Source: Saccostrea cucullata
Taxonomy: Eukaryota
Assembly (NCBI RefSeq): GCF_032062105.1
Contig: NW_026929140.1
Location: 62,001-126,000 of the forward strand
Length of the DNA: 64,000 nucleotides
Reading direction: 5' to 3'
The position numbers are program-made. Shown here one piece after another: positions 1 to 60,600 of the stretch (position 1 is the first letter of the stretch; each line of letters begins with the position of its first letter).

Positions 1-3000
1 ATCAATTCAGGTTATATTTTTTTTAAAGTTATTTAATCTAATTCAAATCATGTACTCACACTTTTGGTCAGATTCTGTGCAGCAAAGTAGAAGAAAAAGG
101 GTGTGTGTTAAATAGTGAACCTTAAGCAAAGCAAGTCTCATCATAAAATTTAACTATGTATGAGGGTTGTCCCGTAAATTAAATCGTGGACAAGTTGTCT
201 AGTGTGAAAAATAAACATCACTGAGTTCTGAAATTTTCACTATTATTTAGTACATATTGTAGCTAGTAATATACACAGCAAATTTCAGATAAAGATATGC
301 ATAAATAATCAAATCATGAGGTTTTATGACATGTATTGTATCACCTTACATTACATGGATTATAACGTCAAAGTGTTTAAAACAGCGTCACGTTTTATCT
401 TTGCTGAAAATGAAGTTGGATGAGTCCGACTTAAATTTAGGAATTTCATTGATTCACATTCTTTAGTCTCCTTAAACAGCCGATGAACCAGTTGCCTTCC
501 TCATGCGATCTTCTGAAGATTTATTAGTACGTTACGGACAATATTCTCACCATCATTCAACTAATATAAAATCTCATATCGGCAGTCTACTGTGACAGCG
601 TCTTTTGCTATTACATTAGGATTTTGTCCGTATATTTTGTACTCCCCAGGGACTCGATCAAAAAACAACTTCGCTAAGAAAACTCCTATTTCATTTGTAT
701 ACTTAAGATATGGTGATATTTTTATAATCTTTTTTCTTCTATGGTCATTTCAAGTCTCTTAAGAAGTCATTACAACATCGAATTAAAAGTGAACTGTTCT
801 CCGGTGCGCCGTTTCGTCATACAAATGTAAAACGTCGCCATTTTTCGTGTGTTGTGTTTACCACTTTCCCATTTCGAATGCGCGAGAAACTGCCAAAAAT
901 TAACCAAATGTCTTAAATTTTTTACAAAGACTACAAAATTTATTGTGAAATTTAATTAGGATAATTTAAATCCAAATCTTATGTATTTAAAACTTTTATT
1001 TTGAATTCAAAATTGTGTATTATTTAATAAAACTTTGGTTTGTTTGACAGTGCACCCTAGGACAATACCCCGTGCACATTCAAGCATAATAAATTCTTTA
1101 TTTTTGCCTATATCTTATCAAAAAAATTATCATGCAATTAAATCTGATAAATAAACATTTACTGACATTTTCAGCTTAGTGCGCCCATTACTTTTCGAGA
1201 AAAACGTTTTGTCCACGATTTTCGGGACAACCCTTGTAGTTCCCCCGTCCGACGAATTTATGCATTTAGTAGTATTTACAGCAGATGTTTTTTTCAAATG
1301 CTTTACAACAATTTTTCCGAAGGTGAAGTTGACTCTATAGAAAACAATCTCTCAAGAAAACAACCCATAGGATAATTTTAAACGTATATATACTGTAGGT
1401 AAGGCTTCCACTAATGGGGAAATAATTGGTAATTTCAAATTCAATCAGCGTTTTGTTCAGCATGAAAAATGTATAGGATTCCGTATCAATTACTTTTTAT
1501 GATCTTTTTTCTCTTTTCTCTTCAGCATTTTTCGTATATGGGTATAAATCGTCAAAAACTAGTCATTCATAAAAGCCAGCCCAGTACTAATTTCTTTTTA
1601 AAATTAAAAGTTTCTCACAACTCGAGCAATAAAAGAATTGCCTTTGGAAGAATTGTGCAATGTCATCTGGAAGCATTCTATATACTAGAGATACAACCCA
1701 TAATTATCAACATGTGAACATTTCCTGTAGACAGAATGCTAAAAATCTTAATCCTTGAGAAAAGGCTTTACCACTCAGTGAGAAGAAACACTGAACAGAA
1801 AAAAACTTCTTATTTAATCATTAGAGTTTACTTTTTAGTAAATTGTTCTAGAGATTCATCAGGAAGGTTTAGTACATGTACATATATATGCTACTGGTTT
1901 ATAATTGTAGCAAAAATGATATTAAACTTACCAAAACAATAAGCAGAGTTACAGCAATTGACTTGGGGAAGTTGATAAACAATGTAGGAACTGCAGTTTT
2001 TCACGCTTATATCGATTTCTTGTGAGCATGGATTTGCAGTTCCAACCTTGCAAACTGTAACATTTTTCATTTCATTTGTAGAAGGATGATCACCTATAGA
2101 AATAGAGATATAACAATAAATGAAAACGTTTCTTTTCGAAGAGGTACAACAAGAAGAAATATCAATGGAACTGGAAAGCATAAACAATGGTCTGTCATTG
2201 TCATACACACTCCCTCACATATAAAGAAAGGGAGAAAGACTAAGACATAGGGCGGCGATGAACATGTCAGGTAACAACCAATGACTCAGGTACATTTACC
2301 TCTGAAGATTAATAGATTAGGCGCGGTGTGCAATTTGATATTCAAATAAAATGTCTTTTGAGAGACAAGGTATAAGAAAATAAAAAAAACGAGTTTTTGA
2401 AAAATATTCTTTTCATTTAACTTAATGCTATATTCAATGAAATATTTTTTTCAATAGAGAACAATCTCCAAGAAAAATATTGAGGGACAAAATAGGTAGT
2501 TAATTTATAAGATTTTATGCTCGTACCTTTTTAGTACTATATATAACAACGACATATCTAGATGTTAATAAAAATTAAGGGGTCGCATGTAGAAACTGTA
2601 ACAAGTCCTTAATTTTTATTCTATCATAAAAAATGAAAGCTTTATCAAAACGATATATCTTCCATATCAATACACATACTGATGTGTGAAGGATATAGAG
2701 ATAACGAACAGTATTCAACATCAAAGTCCATCAAACAATACAAAATAGGAGCAGTGCAACACGGACCTCTAAAACATCTAAGGTGGGATCAGGTGCCAGG
2801 AGGAGTGAGTATCCCCTGCTGACCGGTCTCATCCGCCTTGTGCTCCTTGTCATGAATTCATGAATTGTCGTCAATTCAGTGTACACATAATGGACTTACA
2901 ATAAGTATGAAAAACGTCAGTCAGCATTTGACTCATTCATAAATTGTATTTGCTGACAAGGTTCTTGTATCGATCAAAGAACTAACGAAATGATGTCCTT

Positions 3001-57600: not shown

Positions 57601-60600
57601 AGCTGAATATTTTACATTATTTTGCATAGAGATTGACAAAACAAAATATAAAATAATAGAAATAAGTATGTTGAGCTTAGCAGATTGTTGTTTTACAGAA
57701 GAATAGATGTTTTTCATTTTTAAAACCATCAAAGGGATATGTGTTTCAAAATCTTTATTTAGTTACATAAATCGATATGCGGTAATTTACTTAATTATAA
57801 TTCAATGCTACATATGTGTTAATTTTAAAAATCAGATTGATTTATATCCATTAATTAAACCATCCGTTATGTTAGGCTCAGTGTTACAGTATACTTGACA
57901 AAGGGTAACACTTTATAAATAGTGCCTGTTTTGGAGGATAAATGTTGAAATAAACACCCCAGGGAAAACAGTTGTCAACCGACTCGTCAGCGGAGGTTGA
58001 CAATGGTTTTCCAAGGGATTTCAATTTCAATTGTTACCCTCCATTTATTTTATTATACTGAATGTCTTATATTGATTTAAGGATGTCAGCAAAAAAAAAA
58101 AAAATCTTTGATCGTCTAAAGGTTCAGGTTCAGAAAGTTTTCAAACTCCCTGCTACTTCGAAAAAGATTTACTGACCTCTTTTTTTAATTGATAATCTAA
58201 GTGTCCTTTTTCATCTAAAGTTTCATTATTTCTGCACTTGCAAGCATGTTTTGTCTGTCGTGTGTTGTTTCCAAGTAAGCTACAACGGACGCAAAATTTT
58301 ATTGACGTCACGTTTATTCCGCTTCTTTCAAAGGCGTAACTGGCGTTTTGAGAATTCTATAGTGAACCGTATAAGCGCATAATGTTGCGTAGGTTGAGGA
58401 TAATAGAACGGATTGTTAATTGCGTGAAAACCAATCAGGATTTAGTACTTTAGAACTTAGTAAGTTCTTCAATAGGTAAACAAGCTTCAGAATAAGACAG
58501 AAAAAGTCAATGTTATTTAATGACATACCGAAATTGTTATCGTACAGTCTATCCATAGTACCATAGTTTTCCCAGAATGTTAGACCGTGAATTTTTTTTT
58601 TCAGAATGACGCATGCGTATTCCAAAATTATGCACGAGCGTAATTGCTAGCGCTCGATAGCGCTAGCAATAAAACAAAATGTCACATGCGTATAAATCGT
58701 TAGTAGACTTCTAAACGTCAGTTGTGCGTTTGAAAGAAGCCTAATTAACGTGATGTCAATAAAGACTTGCTTCCGATGTAGCTTACCTGAAAAAAAAAAC
58801 CCAAAATGAAACATGCCTGCGAGTGCAGAAATAACGTAATTTTACATGACAAAGGACTCTTTGGGTATCAAACAAACAATAAAGAGGTCAGTATATCATT
58901 TTCGAAGCTTTCTTATTGAGAAAAATTGAGGCGTTGAAATTGAAAGGTTTCTAAACGTGAACATAAAGACGATCGATGATTTTTTTTTTGCTGAAACCCT
59001 AAATGAATAAGACATTCAGTAGATAATGATTTTCCTTGGGTGTCAATTTCGATTGTTATCCTCCAAAACAGGCACCTTTTATAAAGGCCTATGATTATGT
59101 GACAAAGTTTTAGCTTATCAGATAGCTTTTAATAAAAGAGAACAACTAAATATAATATTTATTTTCTTACAGAATTGAGTGATAACTGTAAGTATTTTAT
59201 AACTTTATATTTTTTAAGGGAAACGTACATGTATGACATTCAAAAGTTTTACACAAGTATACAGTCAACAAATTTAATTTCTTTCACGTTAAGAACCATC
59301 TCTACACTGTTCATTAAGGAGTTCTGCTTCTATCGTATTTTTCTGCAGTTAGAGTGATTTGCCCTTAGATTCAAATACCAATAAATAGAAATTCACATTA
59401 CATAACTCAATTTGTAATCGATTTAAGTAAACGAAACATGTATTTTCTCCATGAAAGTAAACATCCGTGATTTCTATTCACCGTGTCTGTGCTGTGCTTG
59501 CACATTTTTCCTGGTGGTAAATGCCACGTAACATATATTGATTATTAAAAAAAAAAAATAAGCTCAATATTTACACCCTTGTCCAATACAATTTTCATAA
59601 TGTCCCAAAAATATTTTGCACCGGTGTAGAGAGGGTACTTAAAGCGTTATATATTTGTTGAATGTCTTCAGGTGTAAAAGGAGTTCCATCAAATCTCAGT
59701 GTTTCCTACCACAATGTTTCTTGGGTATCAAAAGTTTTTGGAACATCTACATTACATTCCCCTAGTGTAATGTTCAAATGTAGCTTTACACCATTACCTG
59801 ACACTTCATTATTTTACGAAATCTCGTGGTATGTGGACGATATCGAAGTTGTGAGGAGTGAAACGCTGTCATATAACTCACTGGAAAATGCACTGCTATC
59901 ATCAAAACAAATAGCACAGAAACAGAAAAAAGCCGGATCAACAGTGCGTTAAATTTTACTATTCTTTGAATTGAAAAACATTTTCAATTGAAACTTTACT
60001 TTTCAATAAAATATCGATTTTTTTATTTGTGTAACTTTTTTTTTTCAGATTTCCTGTCTTGTTGGAGCCAAATATAAGGAAGATGGGTTTGCGTGTAAAA
60101 CTGCTAGTAGTAAACCATTTTTTGCTGGCATAAAGGTATATTTTTATGCACCCGTAATCGAACATCCGGGGTTATGAATTTTACCCTGTCTTTGTCATCC
60201 GTTCGTCTGTCTGTTTGTTTGTAAAGAAAAAACACACTTTTACTTGGCCTATAACTTTTTATTGATTGGAACTACGGATTTCATATTTCGCATGTGATTT
60301 TCCTGTTACAAAGCCTTTCTTTGGATAAAATGTCTTTTGACCTGACCTTAGAGTTTGAGCCATTTTTACTTCAATCTTGGCCATAACTTTTTAAAAGTTG
60401 GTGCTAGGCCTTTCATACTTTACTTGTATATTCCTTGTGACACGACCTTTCCTCAAATACCAACAACTTAAATACTTATACATTAACATTGGAGTTTGGC
60501 CAATATTTAAGGAACCTTTAATATTAGCAATAACTTTGGTGGTAGGGTTTTCACACATTGTTTTATTTTTGTCAAGACAACACTTGGGCTACCATTAATT

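What the first reader, a model, noticed from the sequence alone, without database searches (positions are those of the whole stretch)
60..60135. Three-gene D8C cluster: two VWDE-like paralogues flanking a membrane receptor built from the same module
Seen: four D8C domains in three genes, each split by a phase-1 intron at the same Gly (WLN|G, WME|G, WFS|G) and bounded by phase-1 introns, making a symmetric 1-1 shuffling cassette. Gene A points left; genes B and C point right. Inference: gene B arose locally by duplicating the D8C cassette and acquiring TM and tail exons, giving a linked set of secreted proteins plus a receptor (ligand/receptor or decoy/sensor pair). The D8C copies are strongly diverged between the cysteines, as expected for a recognition surface. 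VWDE itself is linked to regeneration blastemas in vertebrates, so a wound-repair role is an alternative.
Basis: partly seen in the sequence, partly recalled or inferred. Interest (0 to 1): 0.7.

Follow-up and report, generated by a model that had tools for sequence, protein, structure and literature searches.

The report
Three linked oyster D10C-domain genes
This stretch of oyster DNA holds three neighbouring genes built around the same uromodulin-type protein module, two secreted and one membrane-anchored, but the membrane gene belongs to a separate, older branch of the family, so this looks like an old family neighbourhood and not a newly assembled ligand-receptor pair.

Summary
The window is Saccostrea cucullata (100% protein hits). 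It holds exactly four copies of a two-exon cassette. Every cassette border is a phase-1 intron, and each cassette is split at the Gly after W-x-x. The cassette is the whole D10C (formerly D8C) domain of GP2/uromodulin.

Genes A (- strand) and C (+ strand) are 45% identical paralogues named "VWDE-like". They have a signal peptide, D10C and beta-sandwich domains, but no VWD or EGF domain was found. Gene B (+ strand) has ten exons and encodes a 440-aa type-I membrane protein: two D10C domains, a transmembrane helix and a tyrosine-rich tail. A spliced transcript record matches it.

B's two domains sit in a well-supported clade of mostly membrane-anchored D10C proteins, and each groups with the matching domain of other two-domain proteins. 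A and C sit with VWD-bearing VWDE-like proteins. Forcing A, B and C together is rejected (AU p = 2e-64). The shared intron position appears family-wide.

Binding between A/C and B and their co-expression were not tested. This is an ordinary old gene-family cluster that includes an uncharacterised membrane D10C architecture.

The parts
3724..3799 (-). Gene A, coding exon 1 (start codon and signal peptide); ends in phase 1
   Evidence: 100% tblastn match of P0007 residues 3-25 at 3793-3725; junction 3724|3401 in phase 1
3207..3401 (-). Gene A, D10C first-half exon (DPC ... WLN|G), phase 1 to phase 1, 195 nt
   Evidence: Splice sites read; junctions; 100% hit to P0007; profile match to GP2 61-122 and UMOD 172-232
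1932..2093 (-). Gene A, D10C second-half exon (G|DHP ... YCF), phase 1 to phase 1, 162 nt
   Evidence: profile match to GP2 123-177 and UMOD 233-287
60..74 (-). Gene A, 15-nt mini exon (E-S-D-Q-K-C), phase 1 to phase 1; the rest of the gene lies left of the window
   Evidence: Sequence read (cag|AATCTGACCAAAAGT|gtgagt); matches the P0007 residues after the D10C domain
23143..23206 (+). Gene B, coding exon 1 (start codon and signal peptide); ends in phase 1
   Evidence: P0002 residues 1-21, 100%; junction
25376..25408 (+). Gene B, exon 2 (33 nt, ...SWMWFCETD), phase 1-1
25737..25925 (+). Gene B, D10C-1 first-half exon (DPC ... WLN|G), phase 1-1, 189 nt
27510..27674 (+). Gene B, D10C-1 second-half exon, phase 1-1, 165 nt. 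Codon 27614-27616 reads Cys where the transcript record and all nine aligned relatives read Gly
27997..28134 (+). Gene B, linker exon between the two D10C domains (138 nt, two conserved Cys), phase 1-1
   Evidence: start junction; end read (the script missed this junction because of an anchor slip of mine)
28422..28622 (+). Gene B, D10C-2 first-half exon (DPC ... WME|G), phase 1-1, 201 nt
29067..29246 (+). Gene B, D10C-2 second-half exon, phase 1-1, 180 nt
   Evidence: (D8C_UMOD E 0.0008, below cut-off)
29369..29434 (+). Gene B, stalk exon (66 nt), phase 1-1
29817..29913 (+). Gene B, transmembrane exon (97 nt), phase 1 to phase 2
   Evidence: hydrophobic window at P0002 357-375, score 2.68
33367..33556 (+). 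Gene B, cytoplasmic tail exon with stop codon; holds several tyrosine motifs (Y-x-x-L/I)
56290..56344 (+). Gene C, coding exon 1 (start codon and signal peptide); ends in phase 1
56684..56884 (+). Gene C, D10C first-half exon (EDPC ... WFS|G), phase 1-1, 201 nt
57301..57462 (+). Gene C, D10C second-half exon, phase 1-1, 162 nt
59173..59187 (+). Gene C, 15-nt mini exon (E-L-S-D-N-C), phase 1-1; counterpart of gene A's mini exon
   Evidence: match at 59136-59189; end junction 59187|59672
59672..59943 (+). Gene C, exon for the first beta-sandwich (Ig_VWDE-like) domain, phase 1 to phase 0
   Evidence: Ig_VWDE E 0.0057, 17 bits against a 28.1 cut-off
60049..60135 (+). Gene C, next exon (87 nt, phase 0-0). 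The remaining 137 residues of the public model do not map in the window; a retroelement follows on the - strand

Best explanation
The window is from the oyster Saccostrea cucullata and carries part of an old cluster of D10C-domain genes.

Genes A and C are paralogous secreted proteins. They have a signal peptide, one D10C domain and a 15-nt mini exon; the model of A's close paralogue P0008, which aligns collinearly with A and C, then shows two beta-sandwich domains. A has a Pro/Ser/Thr-rich end. They keep the N-terminal module of VWDE-like proteins, but no VWD or EGF part was found.

Gene B is a type-I membrane protein. It has a signal peptide, D10C-1, a linker, D10C-2, a stalk, a transmembrane helix and a 63-residue tail with conserved tyrosine motifs.

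Shown: the D10C domain is always encoded by two exons with phase-1 borders. Inferred: this structure is ancestral to the family, so it allows in-frame exon gain, loss and skipping, but it does not mark a recent local event.

Shown: B belongs to a separate subfamily of mostly membrane-anchored D10C proteins in which the two-domain arrangement was already present. Inferred: the A-B-C linkage is what remains of old tandem growth of the family. A second contig of the same species seems to hold an A-like and a B-like paralogue.

Function is inferred only, by analogy with uromodulin/GP2 and from the anatomy. A and C are likely glycoproteins of mucus or matrix at epithelial surfaces. B likely displays the same kind of module on the cell surface and couples it to endocytosis or phosphotyrosine signalling through its tail. 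The likely context is contact with microbes or wound repair. Nothing here shows that A or C binds B.
For: - **Species and gene models.** The window exons hit P0001 and P0007 at 100% (NCBI 'VWDE-like', S. cucullata, both with a longest contig of 367,507) and P0002 (440 aa, from a 2,223-nt contig, so a spliced transcript). All exons map with canonical GT-AG borders.
- **Domain identity.** The exon-half profiles hit only GP2 and uromodulin below E 0.001, and the two halves abut: GP2 61-122 then 123-177, UMOD 172-232 then 233-287. These are the D10C limits of PMC8930769 (passages read). Pfam D8C_UMOD scores 34.5-42 bits against a cut-off of 27 in 4 of 4 B-type relatives, and 26.6 bits in the A-type paralogue. 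The A-type model (pLDDT 73.5) matches GP2 7p6r_A with target TM 0.71 and rmsd 2.8 A over 121 columns.
- **Separate subfamilies.** Shown by the FastTree of 136 domains and the IQ-TREE of 96, by exon-wise trees using the window's own exon translations, and by the AU test, p = 2.35e-64.
- **Membrane anchoring.** A hydrophobic segment follows the D10C domain in 17 of 25 proteins of B's clade and in 0 of 9 of the A/C clade.
- **VWD domains.** P0093 and P0113 of the A/C clade carry VWD (41.5 and 43 bits). A and C align collinearly with them for about 400 residues and then stop or turn Pro/Ser/Thr-rich.
- **Intron age.** Of 262 first halves in the fetched proteins, 71 are not followed by a second half. 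Of those 71, 55 end within 52 residues, and 'GK' follows in 20 of 71 against 4 of 191. That is the pattern expected when a G|GTAAG donor is read through.
- **Second linked pair.** P0008 (A-like, 77.6% to A) and P0004 (B-like, 58.5% to B) are both S. cucullata records with a longest contig of 167,991.
- **Context from papers (passages read).** Oyster 'Vwde family' genes change expression on OsHV-1 infection (bioRxiv 10.64898/2026.05.15.723513). Nine VWDE genes appear among genes linked to the Marteilia response in Ostrea edulis (PMC9679248).
Against: - The age of the B subfamily therefore rests on branch lengths and on two Saccostrea species only.
- The trees use 124 columns and are unrooted. 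They sample the best 150 of 630 representatives, which lie nearest the consensus of these four cassettes.
- If every relative of B also lies in this same cluster, a local origin in the deep past is not excluded.
- Placing P0004 and P0008 on one contig rests only on their equal contig lengths.
- The B-type structure model failed (pLDDT 47.6).
- No canonical ITAM, ITIM or ITSM is present in B's tail (my own reading).
- The UMOD N275 and GP2 N65 decoy glycan sites are not conserved.
- The window's allele of B has Cys at a Gly that is kept in all 10 B-type proteins aligned, so this copy may be impaired.
- No expression, localisation or binding data for these three genes were seen.
Confidence: 0.7

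Rival explanations
1. Gene B was built at this locus by copying the D10C cassette of A or C twice and adding transmembrane and tail exons. This produced a linked pair of secreted ligand (or decoy) and receptor.
For: The genes are neighbours and share the module and its intron phases. Symmetric 1-1 exons do permit such shuffling. A public isoform lacking D10C-1b (P0012) and one lacking the transmembrane exon (P0003) show that the exons behave as in-frame units.
Against: B's domains are not the nearest relatives of A/C. Holding them together costs 164.8 lnL (AU p = 2.35e-64). Domains 1 and 2 of B each pair with the same-numbered domain of other membrane proteins, so the two-domain membrane architecture predates B. 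The intron position appears family-wide. Binding was not examined.
Confidence: 0.07
2. This is an old cluster kept together for function. Secreted (A/C-type) and membrane (B-type) D10C genes stay linked because they act in one pathway, for example by sharing a ligand, through soluble forms competing with the receptor, or through co-regulation in epithelial defence.
For: An A-like and a B-like paralogue also appear to share a second contig (equal contig length 167,991). Both B-type paralogues predate the S. cucullata / S. echinata split and share one 3.0-Mb contig in S. echinata. Oyster VWDE-family genes respond to infection.
Against: The 5' ends of A and B are 19.3 kb apart, and B's stop is 22.7 kb from C's start. 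Transposon remains fill these gaps, so no compact shared control region is evident. Tandem families stay linked without any functional reason. There are no expression data for these genes.
Confidence: 0.15
3. Gene B in this assembly is a damaged or decaying allele and is not a working gene.
For: Codon 27614-27616 reads Cys where all 10 B-type proteins aligned have Gly, which adds an odd cysteine to a disulfide-rich domain. None of the 5 proteins returned for its exon was an NCBI-sourced protein identical to it.
Against: All ten exons are open with intact GT-AG borders. They match a spliced transcript record at every other residue outside the junction codons. The single difference may be a polymorphism or a base-calling error.
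Confidence: 0.05

Closest known systems
D10C (formerly D8C) domain of the uromodulin/GP2 'decoy module' (PDB 7p6r, 7pfp; PMC8930769)
   Same: The domain limits are the same (D-P-C start to the last Y-C), and both exon halves match end to end. The fold matches for the A-type protein (target TM 0.71, rmsd 2.8 A, 32% identity). The UMOD N232 sequon W-L-N-G-T is kept in B's D10C-1 and in 5 of 5 B-type proteins.
   Different: There is no ZP module, no EGF domain and no preceding disulfide-bonded beta-hairpin; in A and C the domain starts a few residues after the signal peptide. The position of the FimH-binding glycan (UMOD N275 / GP2 N65) is not conserved. By my reading, A, C and B's D10C-1 lack the C3-C6 disulfide pair, while both B domains have one extra pair.
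[quoted passage not shown]
   Same: A and C carry the NCBI name. Their D10C domains group with VWD-bearing proteins P0093 and P0113. They align collinearly with those proteins over about 400 residues: D10C, an Ig-like domain and a second beta domain. An Atlas cluster of molluscan VWDE-like proteins combines D8C_UMOD, VWD and Ig_VWDE (a lead only).
   Different: No VWD or EGF domain was found in A's public model or its paralogue, or in C's 402-aa public model (precomputed Pfam). Ig_VWDE is only sub-threshold (17 bits against 28.1). A ends in a Pro/Ser/Thr-rich stretch instead.
OIT3/LZP and other ZP-module D10C proteins
   Same: They share the D10C domain (PMC8930769; Atlas rows).
   Different: Those proteins are ZP-module polymer subunits. 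None of the three genes here shows a ZP module.
Uncharacterised membrane-anchored D10C proteins (for example S. echinata LOC133176031 and LOC133176006, S. cucullata LOC134248291, and unnamed representatives P0013, P0019-P0021)
   Same: This is gene B's own family. It shares the order of signal peptide, one or two D10C domains, transmembrane helix and a tail with Y-x-x-I/L motifs.
   Different: The family has no described function. None of my searches turned up a paper on it.

Membership tests
D10C / D8C domain (Pfam PF23283 D8C_UMOD) | Sequence match to the family profile at or above the curated cut-off | tested here: inconclusive
   Window exons were scanned singly, because the joined model was left out. 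Two of the eight halves gave a sub-threshold hit (14 bits in A's first half, 20 bits in B's D10C-2 second half, cut-off 27) and the other six gave none. Relatives from other loci scored 34.5-42 bits in 4 of 4 B-type proteins (second domain only) and 26.6 bits in the A-type paralogue. Precomputed Pfam lists PF23283 for P0001, P0002 and P0007.
D10C / D8C domain | Homology to the solved GP2/UMOD D10C over the whole domain, from D-P-C to the last Cys | tested here: met
   The first-half exon profile hits GP2 61-122 (E 3e-5 / 2e-4) and UMOD 172-232 (E 1e-4). The second-half profile hits GP2 123-177 (E 1e-6) and UMOD 233-287 (E 2e-5). Nothing else scores below E 0.69.
D10C / D8C domain | D10C fold | tested here: met
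   This holds for the A-type only. The P0008 model (pLDDT 73.5) matches 7p6r_A with E 1.5e-7, target TM 0.71 and rmsd 2.8 A over 121 columns, and 9nu1_S with target TM 0.78. The B-type model was too poor to use (pLDDT 47.6).
D10C / D8C domain | Ten conserved cysteines forming five disulfides (C1-C8, C2-C9, C3-C6, C4-C10, C5-C7) | tested here: inconclusive
   Cysteine counts read: C has 8, A has 9, B D10C-1 has 10 (11 in the window allele) and B D10C-2 has 12. By the alignments, only B D10C-2 keeps C3 and C6. Disulfide pairing cannot be tested here.
UMOD/GP2 decoy module | A disulfide-bonded beta-hairpin packed on D10C, with a high-mannose glycan in the groove (UMOD N275 / GP2 N65) | tested here: not met
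   In A and C the D-P-C start lies within 4 to 8 residues of the end of the signal-peptide region. The residue aligned with UMOD N275 / GP2 R165 is Q, H, C and C in the four copies (my own reading). Glycan type cannot be tested here.
UMOD/GP2/OIT3 ZP-module proteins | C-terminal zona pellucida module | tested here: not met
   No Zona_pellucida hit in P0003-P0006 or P0008. Precomputed Pfam for P0001, P0002 and P0007 lists only PF23283.
VWDE | VWD domain and EGF repeats after the N-terminal D10C and Ig region | tested here: not met
   P0008, the paralogue of A, shows no VWD or EGF hit even at E up to 5. Precomputed Pfam for P0007 and P0001 lists only PF23283. The 3' parts of A and C lie outside the window, so this rests on the public models.
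VWDE | Ig_VWDE domain (PF25776) after D10C | tested here: inconclusive
   Gene C exon 59672-59943 scores E 0.0057 and 17 bits against a 28.1 cut-off. P0008 gives no hit. The model shows beta-sandwich domains in this region.
ITAM / ITIM / ITSM immune receptors | A canonical tail motif: Y-x-x-L/I, 6-12 residues, Y-x-x-L/I; or [SIVL]-x-Y-x-x-[ILV]; or T-x-Y-x-x-[VI] | tested here: not met
   My reading of the tail: the Y-x-x-L/I motifs lie 16-18 residues apart, and position -2 does not fit ITIM or ITSM. The motif definitions are recalled, not taken from a call.

The most novel reading that the evidence does not exclude
B-type proteins may be an unrecognised family of invertebrate cell-surface receptors. 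They would use the uromodulin-type D10C domain as the sensing ectodomain and signal, or are internalised, through conserved tail tyrosines. The linked secreted A/C-type D10C proteins would act in the same pathway as soluble competitors or co-ligands at oyster epithelia. That would make this a membrane-plus-soluble version of the vertebrate uromodulin/GP2 anti-adhesion system.
Probability: 0.12. Interest if true: 0.6.

Novelty: new variant of a known kind. Interest (0 to 1): 0.3.

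Why it matters
D10C is known functionally only from vertebrate uromodulin and GP2, where it presents a glycan that traps bacterial adhesins. This window shows the same domain in an oyster as a clean two-exon, phase-1 module in two settings. One is a truncated VWDE-like secreted protein. The other is a membrane protein with a tyrosine-rich tail, an architecture that none of my searches found described in a paper.

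If the membrane form is a working receptor, it would extend the role of D10C from passive decoy to cell-surface sensing in animals that rely on innate defence. It would also give oyster disease research a defined gene family to test.

As it stands, the cluster itself is ordinary. It is an old tandem family neighbourhood, not a freshly built ligand-receptor pair.

Tried and rejected
- **Pfam on single exon halves.** Only sub-threshold hits came back, as expected for a split domain. I replaced this with exon-wise profiles against solved structures and scans of relatives from other loci.
- **Structure of the B-type protein (alignment A5).** Mean pLDDT was 47.6 and pTM 0.31, too poor for a fold search, so none was run.
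- **The listing of cluster members.** The tool answered that the database is switched off. The organisms, names and contigs of P0009-P0155 therefore stayed unknown. So did the accession numbers of A, B and C.
- **Paper searches.** The 'D8C' plus 'mollusc' search returned only identifier strings in taxonomy papers.
- **Tail motifs.** I looked for a canonical ITAM, ITIM or ITSM in B's tail by reading it and found none.
- **Further shared exons.** No other paralogous exons between A and C turned up inside the window. A's further exons lie outside it.
- **ARAGORN tRNA-Thr call at 35144-35216.** It was not backed by Rfam at gathering score.
- **Complex prediction was not sent.** The only reasons to expect A/C-B binding are adjacency and a shared domain, and the tool's own text says that is not reason enough. 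My report does not claim binding.
- **dN/dS was not attempted.** No coding DNA of relatives was available, and the in-window paralogues are too diverged.

Full report
**Source and method.** The window is AT-rich (GC 0.28-0.43), contains no N, and comes from the hooded oyster Saccostrea cucullata. Single exons give 100% hits to two NCBI proteins of that species and to one transcript-derived record. I took nothing in it for human. I did not build or search a joined spliced model. Where a whole protein was needed, I used public records returned by the tools, preferring paralogues or orthologues from other loci.

- Stop-to-stop ORFs and the sequence around them show four copies of a two-exon unit.
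- Each first half begins after an AG with two bases that complete a codon, just before D-P-C. It ends with a donor placed one base into a Gly codon, after WLN (A), WLN (B1), WME (B2) or WFS (C).
- Each second half begins G|GN and ends one base into the codon after C-F or C-L.
- Junction checks against the public proteins gave the same borders, all in phase 1.
- The copies resemble each other far beyond chance. First halves share 33-55% identity (E 7e-27 to 1e-5) and second halves 30-46% (E 1.5e-19 to 5e-7), among 2386 ORFs.
- Profiles made from the copies find no fifth copy.

**The three genes.**
- *Gene A (- strand).* It has a signal-peptide exon (3799-3724), the two D10C exons (3401-3207, 2093-1932) and a 15-nt mini exon (74-60), and then leaves the window. 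It is P0007, 500 aa.
- *Gene C (+ strand).* It has the same layout (56290-56344, 56684-56884, 57301-57462, mini exon 59173-59187). Two further exons follow (59672-59943, 60049-60135). After them a retroelement lies on the other strand, and the remaining 137 residues of P0001 (402 aa) do not map in the window.
- A and C are 44.8% identical over 404 residues.
- *Gene B (+ strand, 23143-33556).* It has ten coding exons. They match P0002 (440 aa) at every residue except one, apart from the codons that span introns. P0002 comes from a 2,223-nt contig while the gene spans 10.4 kb, so it is a spliced transcript.
- B reads signal peptide, D10C-1, linker, D10C-2, stalk, a hydrophobic helix (residues 357-375) and a 63-residue tail.
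- None of the 5 proteins returned for B's exon was an NCBI-sourced protein identical to it. The gene may therefore be missing from the public annotation. I could not verify this.

**What the module is.**
- A profile of the four first-half exons hits only GP2 (61-122) and uromodulin (172-232) below E 0.001. A profile of the second halves hits GP2 123-177 and uromodulin 233-287.
- The halves abut exactly. The unit runs from D-P-C to the last Y-C. These are the limits of the structurally defined D10C domain that replaced the older D8C (PMC8930769, passages read). The same paper lists VWDE and OIT3 among D10C proteins.
- Pfam D8C_UMOD passes its cut-off in 4 of 4 B-type relatives and just misses it in A's paralogue.
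- A model of that paralogue (pLDDT 73.5) superposes on the GP2 decoy module with target TM 0.71 and rmsd 2.8 A. Two beta-sandwich domains and a disordered end follow.
- The B-type model was too poor to use.
- The domain departs from the vertebrate form in places. A, C and B's first domain lack the C3-C6 cysteine pair. Both B domains carry an extra pair. There is no preceding beta-hairpin in A and C and no ZP module. The residue that bears the FimH-binding glycan in uromodulin is not Asn here (my reading). The uromodulin N232 sequon W-L-N-G-T is kept in B's first domain in 5 of 5 B-type proteins.

**Origin of gene B.**
- A profile of the four first-half exons found 630 representative proteins at E up to 0.001 in the 1.84-billion library, and the best 150 were fetched.
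- Pairing first and second halves gave 136 full domains in 74 proteins.
- Two trees agree: a FastTree of all 136 domains, and an IQ-TREE of 96. For the second I dropped seven long-branch rows and within-protein copies more than 80% alike.
- A and C sit with P0036 (support 97) inside a group of single-D10C proteins, two of which carry VWD domains.
- B's two domains sit in a 34-row clade (support 99). B domain 1 groups with domain 1 of P0019, P0020, P0021, P0042 and P0071 (99). B domain 2 groups with domain 2 of P0019-P0021 and with P0012 (99).
- The two-domain arrangement is therefore older than B.
- In that clade 17 of 25 proteins have a hydrophobic segment after the D10C domain, against 0 of 9 in the A/C clade (a crude hydropathy rule).
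- Trees of each exon half alone, using the window's own exon translations, give the same nearest neighbours.
Forcing this group together costs 164.8 log-likelihood units (AU p = 2.35e-64).

**The shared intron is not a local signature.** Among 262 first halves in the fetched proteins, 191 run on into a second half (164 of them with the G-x-x-P continuation). The other 71 do not. Of those 71, 55 end within 52 residues, and 'GK' is the commonest next pair (20 of 71, against 4 of 191). That is what an ORF caller produces when it reads through a G|GTAAG donor. Many separate loci therefore appear to have the same phase-1 intron. This is an inference from sequence ends, not from genomic DNA.

**Conservation and linkage.**
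- Among B-type proteins the first D10C domain is the best conserved part (76-83% identity). The second domain follows (62-69%), and the linker (37-39%), stalk and tail (44-55%) are lower.
- Two B-type lineages predate the split of S. cucullata and S. echinata. In S. echinata both lie on one 3.0-Mb contig.
- In S. cucullata an A-like protein (P0008, 77.6% to A) and a B-like protein (P0004, 58.5% to B) are both reported from a contig of 167,991 bases. This suggests a second linked pair and so a larger old cluster.
- The gaps between the genes here are 19.3 and 22.7 kb. They hold reverse-transcriptase and Tc1-type transposase remains.

**Function.** Nothing here tests function.
- By analogy with uromodulin/GP2 and from the anatomy, I take A and C to be secreted glycoproteins of mucus or matrix.
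- I take B to be a surface protein whose tail tyrosines serve endocytosis or phosphotyrosine signalling. The tail keeps conserved G-Y-T-x-L and V-Y-C-x-I-N-D motifs, and relatives have Y-D-Y-I, Y-D-E-I and Y-A-T-I. No canonical ITAM, ITIM or ITSM is present.
- Passages in oyster papers report VWDE-family genes changing with OsHV-1 infection and among genes linked to the Marteilia response. A mussel 'uromodulin' is down-regulated after Vibrio exposure. A Nematostella uromodulin-like gene is induced at wounds. None of these can be tied to the three genes here, and the supplementary gene tables were not available.
- None of my searches turned up a paper on membrane-anchored D10C proteins.

**Verdict.** The claim that B was assembled locally from the A/C cassette is contradicted. 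The ligand-receptor idea remains untested and rests only on adjacency. I score the cluster as an ordinary old family neighbourhood. Its one mildly new element is the uncharacterised D10C-D10C-transmembrane-tyrosine-tail architecture of gene B.

Noticed in passing
window 27614-27616: In gene B the codon reads TGT (Cys, 'HCCSF'). The matching transcript record P0002 and the nine other B-type proteins aligned read Gly here. It may be a polymorphism, a base-calling error or a damaging allele.
   Followed up: partly
window 23143-33556: None of the 5 proteins returned for gene B's exon was an NCBI-sourced protein identical to it. Only a transcript-derived record matched at 100%. The gene may be absent from the public annotation of this genome.
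   Followed up: no
P0003 and P0012 (public relatives of gene B): The NCBI isoform X2 of an S. echinata B-type gene (P0003) ends without the transmembrane segment. P0012 runs from a D10C first half straight into the linker, as if the second-half exon were skipped. Both are in-frame outcomes that the phase-1 exon structure allows, and they hint at soluble or shortened isoforms.
   Followed up: partly
window about 5465-10490: Retroelement remains with a reverse-transcriptase piece at 7171-7614. Two nearly identical ~260-nt stretches lie in opposite orientation at 9187-9447 (-) and 10228-10488 (+), seen as near-identical ORF translations. Recalled, not tested: inverted terminal repeats are typical of DIRS-type elements.
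   Followed up: no
window 35596-36546 (-): Tc1/mariner-type transposase split over two reading frames: HTH_Tnp_Tc3_2 at 35908-36546 and DDE_3 at 35599-35904. It is probably a decayed copy.
   Followed up: no
window 48065-51000 (+) and 60694-64000 (-): There are two more retroelement remains. One has a reverse transcriptase at 48509-48964. The other has a reverse transcriptase (60886-61140) and an aspartic protease-like piece (61324-61665) on the - strand, and it sits inside gene C just after exon 60049-60135.
   Followed up: no
window 35144-35216 (-): ARAGORN calls a tRNA-Thr (AGT) here, but Rfam finds no tRNA at gathering score anywhere in the window. It may be a tRNA-derived repeat or a false call.
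   Followed up: partly
window about 26075-26460: A short-period repeat inside gene B's third intron gives long repetitive ORFs in several frames on both strands.
   Followed up: no
P0009, P0010, P0011, P0014 (representative proteins): Some relatives carry many D10C first halves in one chain: 7 to 17 matched stretches in proteins of 1375-2939 aa, with some copies identical to each other. The domain therefore also forms long tandem arrays elsewhere. The organisms are unknown.
   Followed up: no
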